DNA from: Escherichia coli
Lineage (GTDB): Bacteria; Pseudomonadota; Gammaproteobacteria; Enterobacterales; Enterobacteriaceae
NCBI RefSeq assembly: GCF_030384885.1
Contig: NZ_CP128613.1
Length of the DNA stretch: 64,000 bases
Strand: one strand, 5' to 3'
A program made the translations under genes and the position numbers. The first letter of the stretch is position 1, and each line of letters opens with the position of its first letter. Below are positions 19,545-62,636 of this stretch, in pieces. Under the pieces are notes generated by a model, which was given only the letters and a program-made list of their open reading frames with translations, made no database searches and was not told where the DNA came from.

Positions 19545-19885
<341 letters not shown>

Positions 19886-23000: not shown

Positions 23001-23143
<143 letters not shown>

Positions 23144-39060: not shown

Positions 39061-39143
39061 TGTAGGCCGGATAAGGCGTTTACGCCGCATCCGACAATCT
39101 TGCACCGGTGCCTGATGCGATGCTGCGCGTCTTATCAGGCCTA
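39061..39143. repeat. REP/BIME palindromic units in the lafK / lfiM divergent region
   Basis: TGTAGGCCGGATAAGGCGTTTACGCCGCATCCG ... GCCTGATGCGATGCTGCGCGTCTTATCAGGCCTAC. Confidence 0.85.
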
Positions 39144-53699: not shown

Positions 53700-54950
53700 G
53701 GTTGTGTTTAGGGCCGGGGAGAGTCGGGGTAAGACTACGAAAGCCCGCTCCCAGCAAGGACTGACGCCAGATAGTTTCTGTCCATGGCTGCTTTTCGCAT
53801 CTTACGTCTTAACCCTGCCTTGAATACCTTATCATTCGTTAAAATATTAATAGCGATGTGCCGTATCCCTGAAAATAATTCTGCGGCGTTTCCTCTTCGT
53901 ATTTTGCAGTCGTCTTCATTCATTACCACGTCCAGACGCCAGTGCAGCTTATTCTCCACGTGCCAGTGATTTCGGATCGCTGTGGCGAACTTTTCTGCGG
54001 TTAAATCAGCAGAACTGATATAATATCTGACCGTCATTTCTGGCTCTTTCTTTTGTTCTGCTATTATTGACCGAAAGGAGAATGCCACGCATAATTTCTT
54101 CAGTCCTTTCCATTCAAACGTGAAATCAATAAGTTCATCACGGACATCGCAAACAATATGAAGACGGATTTCTTCTCTGCCGTGACTCTTTTCACTCATT
54201 GCGTAACTGTCATGCTCTGGATTATTTAATTCTTTCAGCGGAAATTTTTCCTCGAAGGCTTTATTTAGCCGCCCCTGGTTTCCTTTTACAGCGAATAAAT
54301 AATCACCTCCCTGTTTTTGTATCTTCTCTGCAATATCTTTCTGGCAACCCATCGCATCAGTTGTGATGATTTTTCCTTTAATATCCAGAATGTTAAGAAG
54401 TTCTGGGATAGCTGTAATCTCATTGGATTTCTCATCCGTCCTGATCTGTCCGATGACCAGACTGTGCATTGTTGAGAATGCACTAATGACATGAATCGCT
54501 CCCCTGCGGCGACTCTTGTCATAAGAATGCCGGAGTGTTTTTCCATCAATTGCGATGACGTCTTTATCATCTGAAGTATGGCAATCTCGCATCCAGTTAA
54601 TAAAGCACTCGTGAAATTTTGAAGGACTGATACAGGATACAACTCTGGCGATGGTATCGTGAACAGGAATACCATTTTCAAAATCACCATATTGTTTTAA
54701 AAAATCGCGATGTGCTTCCCCAAACTCCTCTATATGTTCCCAGCCTTCTGCACCAGAAATAACGGCACAAATAGTCAACAGTAGAATATCCGACAATTTA
54801 TGTTTCACTTTTGCAGGATTGTCTGTAATCGGGAATAACAGAAATATGTTCCATCAATTTTTTAAGTTCCATTCTTTTCTCCTTAATTATGTAAGGAGTA
54901 TTTGATCATGTATAAGCAATAAAAAAACAGCTTCAGGCAATGAGGAATAT
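53700..54950 (-). mobile_element. ISAs1-family insertion sequence (H-repeat element), approximate boundaries
   Basis: Transposase ORF plus flanking sequence; terminal inverted repeats not mapped. Confidence 0.5.
53735..54808 (-). CDS. ISAs1-family (H-repeat-associated) transposase; N-terminus appears frameshifted
   Basis: 357-aa ORF from a GTG; an upstream ATG-initiated segment ([21 protein letters not shown]) lies in a different frame across an A-run near 54809-54812. Confidence 0.8.
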
Positions 54951-54994
54951 CTCAATTTTTAAACATAAAATGCGAATTGTTTAGTACAAAAAAG

Positions 54995-57000
54995 CAGCGT
55001 TAAGTGAGTAGGCCACCGGAACCTCCCCGACAGCCTCTCGCAGAACCGTACGTGAAACTCTCGCTTCATACGGCTCCCGTCAGGCAAACGCGCTTCCTGG
55101 TCCTGCTTTCCAGTGGGCAAACAACTCCGGCTTCTCTTTTGACAGCCTTTCCATTAGCTGACACGCCTTCGTCTTTCTATACCGCAGGGTTTTATATTTC
55201 TTTCTCGCCCACGCAATCAGCGTCAGATTAATATATCTGCATACTTTCTTCATCGCTGATTTGTGGTATCTCGCGTAATAATTCAGCCACCCCGATATTA
55301 TCGGATTCAGCCACTTCGCAATATCTTCGAGACTCATCTCCACCCTGCGTCTGATCCACAGTTTCCTGAGTTTTCCAATCATGCCTTTCTGCGCACGGTT
55401 ACTCGCCGCCGGGCTGAAACTCGTAAAGAGGTTTCCCCGCCGGTGGTTACGTGCTCTTCGCGCTCTGAACGTATACCCCAGAAAATCAAACTGCACTGTT
55501 TCATGGTTCGCCTGTCGTTCGCTGTCTTTGCAGTAAACTATTTTCGTTTTCTCCGGATGTAATTCCAGTCCACATTCCTGAAAACGTTTTGCCAGCTTAT
55601 TCAGTAATTCCTCTGCCTGTTGTTTACTGCCACAATGAATTAATCCATCATCTGCATAACGGCACCAGGGAATTTCCGGATAATGTAACGTCAGCCATTT
55701 ATCAAACACATAGTGCAGAAATAAATTCGCCAGTACCGGGCTGATGACTCCACCCTGTGGCGTACCTTTATTTCTTTCCTTCAGTGTTCCATCCGGCATC
55801 TGCACCGGCGCTGTCAGCCACCGGCGAATAGACAGTCTTACCCATTTATCCGCACAATGTTTATCCACTGCCCTGAGTAATAAATCGTGGGGGATATTAT
55901 CGAATAACCCTTTAATATCAAACTCAAGACACCAGTCGTATTGCCAGCAACGTTTTCTGGTGACTGCTATTGCATCCAGCGCTGATTTTCCATGCCGGTA
56001 TCCGTATGAATCATTCAGGAAATAACGCTCCACTAATGGTTCAAACGTTACCAGCACCGTCATCTGCGCTATTCGATCGCTTACTGTCGGTATTCCTAAA
56101 AGTCTTTTGCTGCCATCCTTCTTCGGAATTTCCACCGCACGCACTGGCGGCGGCATCCAGCTTCCCGACGATAACCTGTTCCAGATTTTGTACAGATTTC
56201 CTTTCAGATCCCGCTCAAAATCTTTCAGCGTCTGGTTATCCACTCCGGCAGCTCCGGCATTCGCCTTTATCCGCCGGTACGCTTCCACCACATGCAATTT
56301 ACTGACCTGAAACGGTTTTGTCTGTTCACACACAGCCTCCTCCTGCCTACAGTTGGGCTGTGATGCAGACTGCCCGACGCTGTCCCTTCGCTCCACGTTC
56401 ATTACAAACGCTTCCTCACTACTACGAACAGCTCTGCCCCGGTTTCGCACATCGATACTCTCATACTCATAATTTCGGTTATTTGTATTTCTCTCTTGAC
56501 ATTGCGACGACCGGTTCCCGTAGTTCCTGCAAAGAGCCCGATACAGCGTCATGCCTGCTATACACCGGACATCATTCACGCAGCATTCGGAATTCACCCG
56601 TAAATTAATCCCGGCGGTATCACGAAACCTCCGGTTTTGATGTCACTTAGGACTAACGACGTTTCAACACAGGTTCGGGTTTACTCATCTCACTGTATCT
56701 CACATAGGATCAGATCTCGTCTGATCGTTCCCCCTGCGCTCACTACCATGGCTCTTTACCACAGCAGCCGGGGTTGTTTGGGACCGACTTCCGACAGCAG
56801 ATCCCGGTGGGCCTGCCACCATCTCTTCACAAGCTTATGCTTATTACATGCAAAACGTCCCGTTTTGCATCTTTGTGCCTACGGCACACCGTGATCTTTC
56901 CCTAGCATATCGCCCTGACGCGCCGCTGGTTTTACGCTCATGGTATCTCCTTAAATTATTTTGGGCTGTATTCTGGCACCATAGACTCTGATTTATCACC
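54995..57000 (-). mobile_element. Bacterial group II intron (approximate boundaries) with intron-encoded reverse transcriptase/maturase
   Basis: RT ORF plus a domain V hairpin on the minus strand (GAGCCGTATGAAGCGAGAGTTTCACGTACGGTTC, about 55042-55075) immediately 3' of the ORF stop; 5' boundary estimated about 0.6 kb upstream of the ORF start. Confidence 0.7.
55080..56597 (-). CDS. Group II intron reverse transcriptase/maturase (true start probably internal, about 56402)
   Basis: RT fingers/palm motifs incl. YADD (CRYADDGLIHC), then maturase X-domain and C-terminal Zn-finger-like region. Confidence 0.85.
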   Translation of the reverse strand: MNSECCVNDVRCIAGMTLYRALCRNYGNRSSQCQERNTNNRNYEYESIDVRNRGRAVRSSEEAFVMNVERRDSVGQSASQPNCRQEEAVCEQTKPFQVSKLHVVEAYRRIKANAGAAGVDNQTLKDFERDLKGNLYKIWNRLSSGSWMPPPVRAVEIPKKDGSKRLLGIPTVSDRIAQMTVLVTFEPLVERYFLNDSYGYRHGKSALDAIAVTRKRCWQYDWCLEFDIKGLFDNIPHDLLLRAVDKHCADKWVRLSIRRWLTAPVQMPDGTLKERNKGTPQGGVISPVLANLFLHYVFDKWLTLHYPEIPWCRYADDGLIHCGSKQQAEELLNKLAKRFQECGLELHPEKTKIVYCKDSERQANHETVQFDFLGYTFRARRARNHRRGNLFTSFSPAASNRAQKGMIGKLRKLWIRRRVEMSLEDIAKWLNPIISGWLNYYARYHKSAMKKVCRYINLTLIAWARKKYKTLRYRKTKACQLMERLSKEKPELFAHWKAGPGSAFA

Positions 57001-57138: not shown

Positions 57139-57777
57139 TTAGTAGACGTTTCTTGTTACTATATGCGCATCATCAACCAAACGCCCGGAACTATCTGTTT
57201 CCTCATGATCAGATACACACATTTCTGGTGCATATCCTGAAAAATCAGAAGTCGCATTCGGATAATTTGTGACATCTAATCTTAATTTAAAACTATATAT
57301 CTCCCAAAATAATTCAGGAGATCTTTCAGGCAAAAAATCATAAATATCAATAAGTATCTTCATCCCCCTTACACGGAACTCCCTCCTGTGTCCATATAAC
57401 GGATGATCTTTACATCCACCAATGATTTGGGACAGAAAAAATCTTGCTCGTGTTTCTGTTACTCCCCAATTAGCAACAGGTTGAAAAATTTCAGAACCAT
57501 CTTTCACACTAAAAAATTTACATTGGTAAAAGCCTGAAAACGTACCATATTCTCCAATATATTTTTCTGATTCATTATAATCCATGCAAACAAAAACATA
57601 TTCAATATCTCCATTTTTTGCCATAACATCATGGATAATAAATGGATTGTTTTGTGATACAGAGAAAATACTATGTACGTTCTGCACTTCAACATTTAAA
57701 GCCCATATATCACTGGGAAAGAAAATCAAACATATCAAATACAACCAAAATTTCATTATTGCGTACCACTCGGACAA
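57139..57777 (-). CDS. Putative immunity protein cognate to the upstream Rhs C-terminal toxin (secreted/periplasmic, about 205-212 aa)
   Basis: Starts at or overlapping the Rhs-fragment stop; hydrophobic N-terminus; AT-rich. Confidence 0.45.
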
Positions 57778-58748
57778 CTCATATCATCAGGTATAGTAAT
57801 TATTACATCTTGAATGCCCATATCCTTCTCTAGCCCTGGTATTTCAAGAATCAACTTTCCGGGATTTTTATCCATTAACTTTTGCTGAGGGTTTATATTA
57901 TTTCTACGCAAAGCCGAATCATCAACGATGTCCCTGACACAACTAAACAGCTGAGTACCATCAGCTTTTAATTTTCCGCTAATAGAATTTATTTTATTTC
58001 TGGCAGATGGTTTATCCCTAAATCCCCATTGAGAAGGGATAATTGCTGTCGAGTCAGTTGTTACTCCGTATTTATCCAAATTTGAAGGACTAGTGTTATA
58101 TCCACCACCTTTCCCAACTAGTCTCGAATTTCCTTGTAATACTCGTGCGCTGCCTATACATTCTTTTAACCCCAAAGGATCTATATACCCCACAGGATCC
58201 AGCGGATACGCATACAGGTTCCAGCCCCCCTTCAGCCCTATCGGATCCTGGGTAATATACCTCCCCTGCAACGGGTCATAGTACCGGTGATGGTTGTAAT
58301 ACAGTCCCGACTCCTCATCATACTGCTGCCCCGGCAGACGGAGTGACTGTTGCAGGTGCAGCGTGCTTTCCTCTCCCAGCAGGTTTCCCCACTCGTCATA
58401 CTCCCCCTGCCACGCCGTTTCCCCTTCCGGGCTGATGAGCGCCTGCGGCAGCCCACGGTGGTCACAGTGGTAAAGATGAAGTTTCCTCTCCGGGATGTAT
58501 TCCGCCTCCATCTGCGCCGCCATCTGTTCCGCCGTCAGCCCGCACTGCGCAAGCCACTGCTGGCTTTCCTCACTCACCGCGCCCGTGCGCAGCTCCCGCT
58601 CCAGCCTTCCCAGCATCACCGCCAGCTCCGCCGGTAGCGTCACCCCCGTGTCCTCCTGCAACATCTCCGCCAGGCTATCCTGCATCGCCGTCTGGCCGGA
58701 AAGCCTGCAACAGCAGCAGGCTACGACACAATGGAATGAAGCACTCAA
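57756..58748 (-). CDS. Orphan Rhs C-terminal fragment: end of Rhs core (DPxGL boundary) plus about 140-aa variable toxin domain
   Basis: 330 aa; ...[45 protein letters not shown] then an unrelated AT-rich C-terminal domain; no full-length rhs upstream. Confidence 0.7.
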
Positions 58749-59105: not shown

Positions 59106-59585
59106 ATGGCGAATTTAATTTATTTAACACTAAATGGTGATAATCAAGGGCTCATTTCAAGTGGTTGTTCATCACAACCATCCATTGGAAATAAAGCTCA
59201 AACAGCACACATTGATCAAATTATGATTTATGAATTCATGCATGGATTAAATCGAGATCAAAACGTCAACCATCATCATTTGACAATAAAAAAACCTATA
59301 GATAAAGCATCACCCTTATTAGGCAAAGCAATTTGCGACAATGAATTATTGACATGTGATTTTTCCTTTTATCGTACAAATAAATTTGGAATTAATGAAC
59401 TGTACTATAAAATCAAATTAACTGGAGCAAAGATAAGCGACATTCATGTCTCTATATCACATATTGTTGTTGATAACAGCGTTCAACCCGAAGAGTCAGT
59501 TTCTTTCAGTTATGAGTCAATTATATGGGAGCATTGTTCCGCTGGCACTAGTGCATACAGTTTATGGGAAGATCGTCTTTTTTAA
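59106..59585 (+). CDS. hcp: Hcp-family protein (type VI secretion tube/carrier), orphan copy
   Basis: 159 aa; MANLIYLTLNGDNQGLISSG... and KPIDKASPLLGKAICDNELLTCDFSFYR...ELYYKIKLTGAKISDI match Hcp beta-sandwich conserved stretches by eye. Confidence 0.65.
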   Translation: MANLIYLTLNGDNQGLISSGCSSQPSIGNKAQTAHIDQIMIYEFMHGLNRDQNVNHHHLTIKKPIDKASPLLGKAICDNELLTCDFSFYRTNKFGINELYYKIKLTGAKISDIHVSISHIVVDNSVQPEESVSFSYESIIWEHCSAGTSAYSLWEDRLF

Positions 59586-59605
59586 AAATATCTGGGATTA
59601 TTATA

Positions 59606-60502
59606 ATGGCTAACAATATTTTACACTCTTCAACATCAGACAGTGAAAACAAAAATACAAGCACTGACAGTACGTTATTTAATGAAAAATTCCCATTTCA
59701 ACTAAGGCAAGATTTCGCATCAAGAATAACAGAAGATGAAAGTGATTTTTTTAAATGGAAAAAAATAAGAGAGTTGGCATTTGTGAGCAATCATAAAGAA
59801 TGGAATAAATATGACTTATTAATTTTAAAATCTGTTAATGAAATCAACATTCATTTGTCCAGCACTCCATACTTTCAGCCGTTGGATTGGTATATAATAA
59901 AAGCCATGCTCTGGACTGAAAACGATGCGGCAAATACTTCTCAGTGGAATGGTTATCCATTACAAATTGGTCGTTTTCGGAAAGATAAAGCGATGCCTGC
60001 TTTAATTTCTGGAGAAAAATCCACAGCCCTTGTTACCCCCCCACAATGGAGAAACAAAGCATTCAATGGGTTAAAAGATCCAGAAAGAAATTACTGGGCA
60101 AAAGAACAAATAACTGGCTCTCCAGAAGAGAATATCAAAGCAGCAATTACTTACTTAATGATGAAACTTTCTAATACAAAGGAAGAGTCAACTATCGTTC
60201 AATATGACTCAACTCTATATAGCACCATTGTCCAAAAAGGCGATTTGGCTGACAACATCAGAAAAGAGAGAAAAACGACCATACCTAACTTAACGAAAAA
60301 CAACCCTGGAAAAAATCTCGATAAAATACACCCGGGAGATATTTTATATTATCAAAAAGCATCCATGAAAGTAATAATTACTGGATGGAAACCTATCACA
60401 ATAAAAAATGTAGCGATGAATTATAATGGTGGTGGAGATCCCAAGTATGCAATAAAACTTCAGTTCGTTTATACATTGCTCACAAAAAACAGAGTGTTAT
60501 AA
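59606..60502 (+). CDS. Putative Hcp-associated effector (about 298 aa, no Cys, C-terminal LysM-like segment)
   Basis: ORF 59564..60502; likely start MANNILHSS; C-terminal YSTIVQKGDLADNIRKERKTTIPNLTKNNPGKNLDKIHPGDILYY resembles LysM spacing; followed by two small secreted proteins. Confidence 0.4.
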   Translation: MANNILHSSTSDSENKNTSTDSTLFNEKFPFQLRQDFASRITEDESDFFKWKKIRELAFVSNHKEWNKYDLLILKSVNEINIHLSSTPYFQPLDWYIIKAMLWTENDAANTSQWNGYPLQIGRFRKDKAMPALISGEKSTALVTPPQWRNKAFNGLKDPERNYWAKEQITGSPEENIKAAITYLMMKLSNTKEESTIVQYDSTLYSTIVQKGDLADNIRKERKTTIPNLTKNNPGKNLDKIHPGDILYYQKASMKVIITGWKPITIKNVAMNYNGGGDPKYAIKLQFVYTLLTKNRVL

Positions 60503-60504
60503 GA

Positions 60505-60954
60505 ATGGGAAAAATAACAATTATTCTACTGCTTACATTCTCATGTACAAAAGGTCTGGCATTTGACATTTCCATGTCTAAAGAATGTAGTGGCGTTGAT
60601 GAACTTGAATTTGTTGATTGTGTTAAAAACTCATTTATTATGAGCACTATTACACTTAAAAAAGCAGAAGTAAATATAAAAGAGAAAATTAAAAAATGGA
60701 ATAACGATGAGGACGAAGCAATAAGAAAAGAAGCAGTTATTTCTTTAAAAAGACTAGAATCTTCTAATCGGGAATTTATACGTTACAGATTTGCTCAATG
60801 CTCTTTTGCTCTAACCTGGGGGGCCAGAGTAGGACGTCTGGCATTCTCTCGACTATATCCATGCTATACTGAGTTAAACAAAATTAGAGCCATGCAACTA
60901 AACAATGCTTTCATTTCAGATTTTCAAAACCCAGATGAGATATCCAGCAAATGA
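60505..60954 (+). CDS. Small secreted Cys-containing helical protein; putative immunity protein 1
   Basis: 149 aa, N-terminal signal/anchor, four Cys; 3 bp after effector stop. Confidence 0.4.
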   Translation: MGKITIILLLTFSCTKGLAFDISMSKECSGVDELEFVDCVKNSFIMSTITLKKAEVNIKEKIKKWNNDEDEAIRKEAVISLKRLESSNREFIRYRFAQCSFALTWGARVGRLAFSRLYPCYTELNKIRAMQLNNAFISDFQNPDEISSK

Positions 60955-61307
60955 TTATTATAAAATTAAGATTAACATTACTATTTATACTGGCCACAAT
61001 TACATATTCAGTACAATCAGACGAATTCGATGATCAAACCACTTACACGAAATACCGTTATTTTTCCACAGCCATACCAGAAGATATACGTAGATTTATG
61101 TTCTACGTAGATTATTGCTTTGTAGATTTAGCATTCGATATCGAAACTGACTCAATGACAGCTAAAAATGATATTATTAATGAATGTACTCCATTAAAAG
61201 AAAGAAACAAAACATTAAAAGAAAAATATAAAAAAGATGAAGAGATAATAGCAATTCTTTCCATTGCAGATGATACCATTTTAATTTATGAAGAATTAAA
61301 AAAATAA
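60951..61307 (+). CDS. Small secreted protein; putative immunity protein 2
   Basis: 118 aa with signal peptide; 4-bp overlap with previous gene; very AT-rich. Confidence 0.35.
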   Translation: MIIIKLRLTLLFILATITYSVQSDEFDDQTTYTKYRYFSTAIPEDIRRFMFYVDYCFVDLAFDIETDSMTAKNDIINECTPLKERNKTLKEKYKKDEEIIAILSIADDTILIYEELKK

Positions 61308-62559: not shown

Positions 62560-62636
62560 TGGCGGAACGGACGGGACTCGAACCCGCGACCCCCTGCGTG
62601 ACAGGCAGGTATTCTAACCGACTGAACTACCGCTCC
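62560..62636 (-). tRNA. aspV: tRNA-Asp (anticodon GUC)
   Basis: Reverse complement reads GGAGCGGTAGTTCAGTCGGTTAGAATACCTGCCTGTCACGCAGGGGGTCGCGGGTTCGAGTCCCGTCCGTTCCGCCA. Confidence 0.9.

What the first reader, a model, noticed from the sequence alone, without database searches (positions are those of the whole stretch)
54995..57000. Group II intron inserted between the Rhs immunity gene and the ISAs1 element
A reverse transcriptase/maturase ORF with a YADD motif is followed immediately by a sequence that folds as a canonical domain V hairpin (GAGCCGUAUG...CAUACGGUUC), so this is a group II intron and not a retron or DGR. The intron RNA domains look intact, suggesting possible mobility. It sits in non-coding DNA beside other mobile elements.
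Basis: partly seen in the sequence, partly recalled or inferred. Interest (0 to 1): 0.45.

Follow-up and report, generated by a model that had tools for sequence, protein, structure and literature searches.

The report
Known E. coli group II intron E.c.I9
This is a real and apparently intact self-splicing retroelement, but it is the already catalogued E. coli intron E.c.I9 sitting in its usual target, the end of an ISEc1 (H-repeat) insertion sequence, so it is ordinary.

Summary
On the minus strand, window 56889..55003 is a 1887-nt group II intron. It starts GUGUG, matches two Rfam intron models, and carries an intact 440-aa reverse transcriptase/maturase with YADD. Domain V starts 4 nt after the stop codon, and domain VI has a bulged A.

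It is already known. Length and both boundaries are the same as for E.c.I9 (class D/IIB3, reference copy in E. coli ATCC 8739), with 96.4% identity and no indels.

One correction: it does not lie between the immunity gene and the IS. It lies inside the ISAs1-family element ISEc1 (H-rpt), 14 nt from the IS left end, at the inner edge of the inverted repeat. This is the published E.c.I9 homing site. The uninterrupted site occurs at 100% identity in other E. coli genomes.

Mobility is plausible:
- EBS1 (CGUGAU) pairs perfectly with the 5' exon (AUCACG).
- The protein keeps consensus residues that the reference copy has lost.
- Copies differing by 1-13 nt sit at four chromosomal loci, in host IS copies only 90-97% identical.

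Full-length copies occur in 83 of 5426 complete E. coli genomes. More than 2000 genomes carry 5' relics of mostly 159 or 193 nt. Interest is low.

The parts
55003..56889 (-). Complete group II intron E.c.I9 (class D / IIB3), 1887 nt, from 5' GUGUG to ...CUCACU 3'
   Evidence: It has the same length and boundaries as the published E.c.I9 (CP000946/NC_010468 2411599-2413485), with 67 substitutions and no indels. Joining the two flanks reproduces an uninterrupted ISEc1 site found elsewhere (L003 3863; 100% over 65 nt in other genomes).
56890..56903 (-). Left terminal inverted repeat of ISEc1 (AGGGAAAGATCACG), which is also the 5' exon. IBS1 AUCACG is at 56895..56890.
   Evidence: Homology among all copies starts at 56903. 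IRL CAGGGAAAGATCACG and IRR CAGGGAAAGATTACG are seen in an intact ISEc1. IBS1-EBS1 forms 6 Watson-Crick pairs.
56619..56624 (-). EBS1 (CGUGAU), in a hairpin loop of domain I
   Evidence: It is complementary to the 5' exon. At the same alignment columns E.c.I2 has CGUCCAG, matching its own exon CUGGACG. The ATCC 8739 copy has GAUGAU, matching the other IS variant GATCATC.
56703..56820 (-). Conserved domain I segment (Rfam RF01999, group-II-D1D4-2)
   Evidence: 93.1 bits against a gathering score of 36, E 1.2e-17. The same model hits E.c.I2 and related introns from Acinetobacter and Bradyrhizobium.
56404..56886 (-). Predicted domains I (about 56886..56516), II (about 56514..56439) and III (about 56437..56404)
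   Evidence: RNAalifold consensus of E.c.I9 (two copies), E.c.I2 and an Acinetobacter relative gave 124 pairs, 42 of them with compensatory changes. The domain limits are my mapping of alignment columns and are approximate.
55080..56402 (-). Intron-encoded protein (RT domain plus maturase X, no endonuclease domain), 440 aa plus stop, lying in domain IV. YADD is at 55658..55647.
   Evidence: Pfam RVT_1 and GIIM only. TIGR04416 scores 426.6 bits. The frame is open and collinear with the ATCC 8739 protein, with 26 synonymous and 23 non-synonymous codon differences. The C-terminal P.LFAHW is shared with class D relatives.
55003..55078 (-). Domains V and VI (Rfam RF00029). DV is 55076..55043. The candidate branch-point A is at 55009, 7 nt from the 3' splice site.
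   Evidence: 62.8 bits against 40. Sequence checked.
53726..55002 (-). Body of the host ISEc1/H-rpt element (3' exon), with a frameshifted transposase gene (54872..53735) and a degenerate right inverted repeat (53739..53726)
   Evidence: The 99.9% identical locus is annotated 'ISAs1 family transposase, frameshifted'. ORFs, IR sequence. IS length without the intron is 14 + 1277 = 1291 nt.
56904..56941 (-). Context only: 13-codon remnant of an Rhs/PAAR gene start (MSVKPAARQGDML) with its ribosome-binding site, cut off by the IS end
   Evidence: Translation. The Rhs core N-terminus in the related locus reads MGGKPAARQGDMT.

Best explanation
The feature is a full-length copy of the known E. coli group II intron E.c.I9 (IEP class D, IIB3-type ribozyme). 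It sits in its cognate homing site, 14 nt inside the left end of an ISEc1 (H-rpt, ISAs1-family) element that closes a T6SS/Rhs effector-immunity cassette in the aspV-yafV island.

How it most likely works. Steps 1-3 are inferred from established group II intron biology and from the class D model intron RmInt1, and were not tested here.
1. The intron is transcribed by read-through from the co-oriented Rhs-CT/immunity genes upstream, or from a promoter of its own.
2. The 440-aa RT/maturase binds the RNA and helps it splice as a lariat, using the bulged A of domain VI.
3. The lariat-protein particle recognises intron-less ISEc1 ends by base pairing, chiefly EBS1 CGUGAU with IBS1 AUCACG, and reverse-splices into the DNA. 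The protein has no endonuclease domain, so cDNA synthesis is presumably primed by a nascent strand at a replication fork, as in RmInt1.

What is shown here: identity with E.c.I9, exact boundaries, the empty site, intact ORF and ribozyme motifs, EBS1/IBS1 complementarity, and a population pattern that indicates recent movement independent of the host IS.
For: - Rfam hits to domain I and DV-DVI.
- TIGR04416 at 426.6 bits against a cutoff of 300, with RVT_1 and GIIM and no HNH domain.
- 1887 nt with the same ends as the published E.c.I9, 96.4% identical with no indels.
- E.c.I9 is listed as class D, and as targeting the Rhs IS (ISEc1-5) at a position different from E.c.I2 (PMC3522654; PMC3552965 Table S1).
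- A precise empty site exists.
- EBS1-IBS1 forms 6 Watson-Crick pairs and covaries with the exon in E.c.I2 and in the ATCC-type copy.
- DI-DIII consensus fold has 42 compensated pairs.
- The IEP is intact, with a rough dN/dS of 0.3 against the ATCC copy. It keeps the consensus residue at R273, D306, P331, R378 and P425, where the ATCC copy deviates.
- Intron copies differing by only 1-13 nt lie at four loci: aspV-yafV, pptA/yddH, a vgrG cluster, and ybfD-ybgA. Their host IS sequences are only 89.7-97.1% identical.
Against: - No splicing or mobility assay exists for E.c.I9 that I could find. Activity is inferred.
- I could not identify a convincing EBS2-IBS2 pairing. The best candidate is a 4-bp match, UCCU with AGGG, at columns homologous to a 4-bp match in E.c.I2.
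- There is only one copy in the window.
- 4 of 11 sampled full-length copies have a broken ltrA.
- Occupancy is low: 83 genomes have a full-length copy, while about 2200 have an empty cognate site.
- Gene conversion between IS::intron alleles could mimic retrohoming in the identity pattern.
- The host IS is itself defective, with a frameshifted transposase and a degenerate IRR.
Confidence: 0.93

Rival explanations
1. It is a structurally intact but functionally dead relic. It was inherited vertically or moved only by homologous recombination or gene conversion between ISEc1 copies, or passively with the IS, and no longer retrohomes.
For: - Most E.c.I9-derived DNA in E. coli is relic: more than 2000 genomes carry only 5' pieces, mostly of 159 or 193 nt (PMC3522654 Table S2).
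- Several full-length copies carry frameshifts or stops.
- The host IS here is frameshifted.
- Homing-site occupancy is very low.
Against: - ORF, DV, DVI and EBS1/IBS1 are all intact here.
- The window-type lineage is 99.4-99.9% identical across four loci, while the surrounding IS is 89.7-97.1% identical. Passive movement with the IS would not produce this, so very recent spread is needed.
- Where the window and reference proteins differ, the window copy keeps the consensus residue at five positions.
Confidence: 0.3
2. The reverse transcriptase belongs to a retron, DGR or defence-type RT (Drt/UG), and the domain V-like hairpin is coincidental.
For: There are weak sub-threshold matches to Drt3a (78 bits against a cutoff of 200), Drt2, retron St85 (54 against 235) and others, as expected for any RT domain.
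Against: - The group II equivalog model passes its cutoff by a wide margin, 426.6 against 300.
- The GIIM maturase domain is present.
- Two independent Rfam intron models hit on either side of the ORF.
- The insertion is precise, with a known empty site.
- Nothing in the Rfam scan or the sequence read here suggested a retron msr/msd or a DGR template/variable repeat, though I ran no dedicated search for them.
Confidence: 0.01

Closest known systems
E.c.I9 (E. coli ATCC 8739, CP000946 2411599-2413485; Zimmerly database name; class D entry D176 in Toro & Martinez-Abarca 2013)
   Same: It has the same length (1887 nt), the same 5' and 3' ends, and the same insertion point 14 nt inside the ISEc1 left end. 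Identity is 96.4% at nucleotide level and 95% at protein level, with no indels. This is above the 95% rule under which the database gives copies one name (rule quoted in PMC3552965).
   Different: - The locus differs: aspV-yafV island here, pptA/RhsE locus in ATCC 8739.
- Four substitutions in the EBS1 loop give CGUGAU here and GAUGAU in the reference. The first ~10 nt of the 3' exon also differ (TAACGCTGC here, AGAAGTACAC in the reference), so the two sit in different ISEc1 sequence variants.
- The reference copy's EBS1 does not match its own 5' exon, whereas this copy's does.
- The reference protein carries non-consensus residues at 5 positions where this copy has the consensus.
E.c.I2 (IntB; X77508; e.g. 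E. coli UMN026, strain 118UI)
   Same: It is also class D, also lacks an endonuclease domain, and also lives in ISEc1/H-rpt elements of Rhs regions. It starts GUGUGCCG and has the same domain architecture and Rfam hits. The protein is 60% identical and ends with the same P.LFAHW motif.
   Different: Nucleotide identity is only about 69-71%. It is inserted inside the transposase ORF, not at the IRL boundary. Its EBS1 is CGUCCAG, pairing with exon CUGGACG.
RmInt1 (Sr.me.I1) of Sinorhizobium meliloti, the experimentally characterised class D intron
   Same: It has an RT-X protein without D/En domains, a IIB3-type ribozyme of about 1.9 kb (1884 nt), and homes into an insertion sequence (ISRm2011-2) (PMC3552965 Table S1). 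Rhizobial plasmid relatives of the IEP are 57-60% identical, but I did not confirm that any of them is RmInt1.
   Different: The host, target IS and EBS sequences differ. RmInt1's splicing and fork-dependent retrohoming are demonstrated experimentally, whereas nothing has been tested for E.c.I9. I did not align RmInt1 itself.

Membership tests
Group II intron (mobile, ORF-containing) | Conserved 5' end GUGYG and 3' end AY | tested here: met
   The intron starts GUGUG at 56889 and ends ...CUCACU at 55003.
Group II intron (mobile, ORF-containing) | Domain V hairpin with the catalytic AGC triad and a 2-nt bulge, followed by domain VI with a bulged A | tested here: met
   RF00029 scores 62.8 bits against 40. 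DV is GAGCCGUAUG...CACGUACGGUUC, and the bulged A at 55009 is 7 nt from the 3' end.
Group II intron (mobile, ORF-containing) | Domains I-III fold upstream of the ORF | tested here: met
   RF01999 scores 93.1 bits. The RNAalifold consensus has 124 pairs, 42 compensated, across 4 sequences of which 2 are nearly identical. No full-length intron model was available.
Group II intron (mobile, ORF-containing) | RT with YADD plus maturase (X) domain encoded in domain IV | tested here: met
   RVT_1 and GIIM, TIGR04416 at 426.6 bits against 300, YADD.
Group II intron (mobile, ORF-containing) | Exon-binding sites pair with the flanking exon | tested here: inconclusive
   EBS1/IBS1 is met, with 6 Watson-Crick pairs that covary with the exon in E.c.I2. 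EBS2/IBS2 has only a weak 4-bp candidate. EBS3/IBS3 was not identified.
Group II intron (mobile, ORF-containing) | Precise insertion, with an intron-less allele of the target | tested here: met
   The joined flanks equal uninterrupted ISEc1 ends at 100% over 65 nt.
Group II intron (mobile, ORF-containing) | Self-splicing or protein-assisted splicing, and retrohoming activity | not testable with these tools
   There is only indirect population evidence: near-identical copies at four loci in diverged IS copies.
IEP class D / ribozyme IIB3 | [quoted passage not shown] | tested here: met
   No HNH/En hit. The protein ends about 30 aa after the GIIM match.
IEP class D / ribozyme IIB3 | Class-specific C-terminal extension signature | tested here: inconclusive
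   The C-terminus P.LFAHW is conserved with E.c.I2 (a listed class D member) and with Bradyrhizobium and Acinetobacter relatives. I did not have the published consensus to compare with.
IEP class D / ribozyme IIB3 | Phylogenetic placement within the class D clade | not tested
   I built no tree. The literature lists E.c.I9 as class D (PMC3552965 Table S1; PMC3522654 Table S2). Its 60% identity to the E.c.I2 protein is consistent with that.
E.c.I9 (named intron) | More than 95% nucleotide identity to the reference with the same boundaries | tested here: met
   1820 of 1887 nt identical (96.4%), no indels, identical ends.
E.c.I9 (named intron) | Insertion in the Rhs-associated IS (ISEc1 family) at the E.c.I9 position | tested here: met
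   The junction is GATCACG|GUGUG as in ATCC 8739, 14 nt from the IS end.
Retron / DGR / defence RT | RT passes the family-specific model cutoff | tested here: not met
   Retron St85 54 bits against 235, Drt3a 78 against 200, Drt2 59 against 390, Drt4 26.5 against 450.

The most novel reading that the evidence does not exclude
The window copy represents a currently active sub-lineage of E.c.I9. Its EBS1 loop has been retargeted by four substitutions (GAUGAU to CGUGAU) to a different sequence variant of the ISEc1 left end, and it has recently retrohomed into at least four chromosomal ISEc1 copies in unrelated strains. The catalogued reference copy in ATCC 8739 would then be a decaying relative. 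A linked reading concerns the 97-, 159- and 193-nt 5' relics. The 159- and 193-nt classes account for most of the more than 2000 partial matches among 5426 genomes. These relics would have been made by ISEc1 ends landing inside the intron, followed by IS-IS recombination, so host IS and intron would disrupt each other in turn.
Probability: 0.45. Interest if true: 0.3.

Novelty: already known. Interest (0 to 1): 0.13.

Why it matters
It matters little beyond correct annotation. The element should be labelled as E.c.I9 (class D group II intron) nested in a defective ISEc1/H-rpt element at the end of a T6SS/Rhs cassette.

Two minor points may be useful. This copy looks like a better candidate for an active E.c.I9 than the reference copy, because its EBS1 matches its exon and its maturase keeps consensus residues. 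This could interest anyone wanting an endonuclease-less E. coli intron for mechanistic or targeting work. The natural EBS1/IBS1 covariation between sub-lineages is also a tidy example of an intron tracking variants of its IS target.

Tried and rejected
- Retron, DGR or defence RT: rejected on model scores.
- EBS2: a complementarity scan of the 5' exon against intron nt 1-480 gave no convincing hit beyond EBS1. An attractive GACGC/GCGUC match in E.c.I2 has no counterpart in E.c.I9. The only co-located candidates are 4-bp matches, so this is left open.
- Literature searches for 'H-rpt' plus group II intron, and for Rhs plus ISAs1 plus group II intron, found nothing useful. The whole-word search for EcI2/IntB was swamped by unrelated terms.
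- UMN026 (NC_011751) is not in the local collection. I used strain 118UI as the E.c.I2 example instead.
- The Sinorhizobium medicae relative (L007) lacks a domain I hit and has another intron nested beside it, so I left it out of the alignments.
- I first assumed the window is collinear with strain 2013C-4282 upstream of the Rhs C-terminus. It is not: similarity ends at about 58677. The Rhs gene in the window is only a 330-aa C-terminal piece.
- I did not use the large protein-database searches, structure prediction or metagenome scans, because the identification was already unambiguous.

Full report
**Context.** The window is E. coli chromosome. It contains fadE, ivy and yafV on one side and tRNA-Asp (aspV, 62560-62636) on the other. 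This is the aspV island, which in many strains carries a type VI secretion/Rhs cluster. The finding lies between a 212-aa ORF (57777..57139, minus strand) and an ISAs1-family transposase gene. The 212-aa ORF follows and overlaps an Rhs C-terminal ORF, which is the usual position of an immunity gene; it is annotated only as hypothetical.

**Checking the observation.**
- Rfam gives two matches above gathering score in the region. RF01999 (group-II-D1D4-2) scores 93.1 bits at 56820..56703. RF00029 (domains V-VI) scores 62.8 bits at 55078..55003.
- Between them is an ORF that RefSeq annotates, in a 99.9% identical locus, as a 440-aa ltrA (56402..55080).
- The protein has Pfam RVT_1 and GIIM and no endonuclease domain.
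- It passes the NCBIfam equivalog for group II RT/maturases (426.6 bits, cutoff 300). All retron and Drt models fall far below their cutoffs.
- YADD is at 55658..55647. Domain V (GAGCCGUAUGAAGCGAGAGUUUCACGUACGGUUC) starts 4 nt after the stop codon. Domain VI has a bulged A at 55009, 7 nt from the 3' end.
- A consensus fold of the 5' 490 nt, using the ATCC 8739 copy, E.c.I2 and an Acinetobacter relative, gives a closed domain I, then domains II and III. Of 124 pairs, 42 carry compensatory changes.

**Boundaries and insertion site.**
- BLAST against 5426 complete E. coli genomes shows that all other copies share sequence from window 56903 onward and on into the IS. Upstream of 56903 they differ.
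- The intron begins GUGUG at 56889, so 14 nt (AGGGAAAGATCACG) precede it.
- An uninterrupted ISEc1 in strain 118UI reads CAGGGAAAGATCACG|TAACGCTGCTTTTTTGTACTAAA. That is exactly the window's two flanks joined. The joined 65-mer occurs at 100% identity in other genomes, and at 80% coverage or more in 2226 genomes.
- The 14-15 nt are the IS left inverted repeat: IRL CAGGGAAAGATCACG against IRR CAGGGAAAGATTACG in an intact copy.
- The intron therefore lies inside the IS, at the inner edge of IRL, in the same orientation as the transposase gene.
- The IS runs 56903..53726, which is 1291 nt without the intron. Its transposase is frameshifted and its right repeat is degenerate.

**Identity.**
- Leclercq & Cordaux 2012 (PMC3522654) report that E.c.I2 and E.c.I9, both class D, target the Rhs-associated IS (ISEc1-5) at two different positions.
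- In that paper, E.c.I9 is full-length in ATCC 8739 (NC_010468 2411599-2413485). It survives as 193-bp fragments in O157 and other strains, and as 159-bp fragments in BL21/REL606.
- Toro & Martinez-Abarca 2013 (PMC3552965, Table S1) list the same coordinates, 1887 nt, RT-X, class D.
- The window intron is also 1887 nt with identical termini. It differs from the ATCC copy by 67 substitutions and no indels, which is 96.4% identity.
- It is only about 70% identical to E.c.I2, which splits the transposase ORF instead.
- The finding is therefore E.c.I9.

**Is it likely to work?**
- The ORF is open. Against the ATCC copy there are 26 synonymous and 23 non-synonymous codon differences, a rough dN/dS near 0.3.
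- At five of the differing positions (R273, D306, P331, R378, P425) the window protein has the residue shared by E.c.I2 and the Bradyrhizobium and Acinetobacter relatives. The reference does not.
- EBS1 (CGUGAU, 56624..56619) pairs perfectly with the last six exon nucleotides (AUCACG). At the homologous loop, E.c.I2 has CGUCCAG, matching its exon CUGGACG.
- The ATCC copy has GAUGAU at that loop. This does not match its own 5' exon, but it matches the other ISEc1 end variant, GATCATC|AGAAGTACAC, whose 3' part is the ATCC 3' exon.
- I could not find a convincing EBS2.

**Evidence for recent movement.** Eleven full-length copies were compared.
- A tight group differs by only 1-13 nt: the window, 2013C-4282, N96, FDAARGOS_536/1284 and R32_14_1F.
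- This group occupies four loci: aspV-yafV, pptA/yddH, a vgrG cluster and ybfD-ybgA.
- The IS sequence next to these copies is only 89.7-97.1% identical to the window's.
- That pattern fits retrohoming into resident IS copies better than passive transport with the IS. Gene conversion is not excluded.
- Other copies are decayed by frameshift, stop or deletion.
- Overall, 83 genomes hold a full-length copy.

**Mechanism (inferred).** By analogy with RmInt1 and general group II biology, the sequence would be: transcription by read-through from the co-oriented Rhs-CT/immunity genes; maturase-assisted lariat splicing; EBS/IBS-guided reverse splicing into intron-less ISEc1 ends; and, lacking an endonuclease, priming of cDNA from a nascent strand at a replication fork. 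None of this has been tested for E.c.I9.

**Verdict.** The insertion context needs correcting, since the intron is inside the IS at its known homing site. The only mildly new points are three. A full-length copy occupies the aspV-yafV locus, where the 2012 survey recorded only the 159-bp relic (its E.c.I9-tr2, in BL21 and REL606). The EBS1 loop differs from the reference copy and matches its own exon. The 5' relics end exactly at fresh ISEc1 ends.

Noticed in passing
L008 3486-3690 (BL21), L009 3470-3730 (O157:H7 F6294), L011 3390-3520 (FDAARGOS_1284); corresponds to window intron nt 1-97/159/193 (56889..56697): The E.c.I9 5' fragments (97, 159 and 193 nt) each stop exactly where a fresh ISEc1 left end (CAGGGAAAGATCAC/TC...) begins. 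That end is followed by a complete IS, which in one case carries a full intron of its own. More than 2000 of 5426 genomes have only a partial match, mostly one of the 159- or 193-nt classes. This fits ISEc1 insertion into the intron followed by IS-IS recombination. It does not fit abortive retrohoming, which would keep the 3' end. O157 also has two stacked IRL remnants upstream.
   Followed up: partly
window 56904-56941 (-): Directly upstream of the IS end there is a ribosome-binding site and 13 codons, MSVKPAARQGDML. These match the conserved N-terminus of Rhs/PAAR proteins (MGGKPAARQGDMT in the neighbouring strain's Rhs core). The IS therefore truncated a downstream rhs/PAAR gene at its start.
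   Followed up: partly
window 57756-58748 (-) and upstream to about 58677: In the window the Rhs gene is only a 330-aa C-terminal piece. Similarity to the otherwise 99.9% identical strain 2013C-4282, which has a full 4.2-kb Rhs core, ends near 58677. Beyond that point there are plus-strand ORFs (59106-61307), including one that looked Hcp-like by eye, with no domain search run. The island has been rearranged relative to that strain.
   Followed up: no
window 19612-19807, 23055-23131, 39065-39141: Four Rfam naRNA4 (CssrE) matches, which are REP/BIME-type repeats typical of E. coli intergenic regions.
   Followed up: no
L004 (E. coli TOK-001 plasmid pECTOK-001_1, 170293-179612): A 219-kb conjugative plasmid carries a 5'-truncated E.c.I9 copy together with the chromosomal neighbours pptA, yddH, nhoA and narI. 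A piece of the chromosomal RhsE/pptA region has therefore been captured on a plasmid. This is a possible route for horizontal spread of the intron.
   Followed up: no
L013 2440-2560 (strain fS58a): An E.c.I9 copy lies next to gnd, at the edge of the O-antigen cluster. It has lost the IRL 5' exon and has a mutated 5' end (GTGCTGTAAGCCC instead of GTGTGCCGTAGGCAC), with a frameshifted ltrA. This is a decayed copy at a fifth locus.
   Followed up: partly
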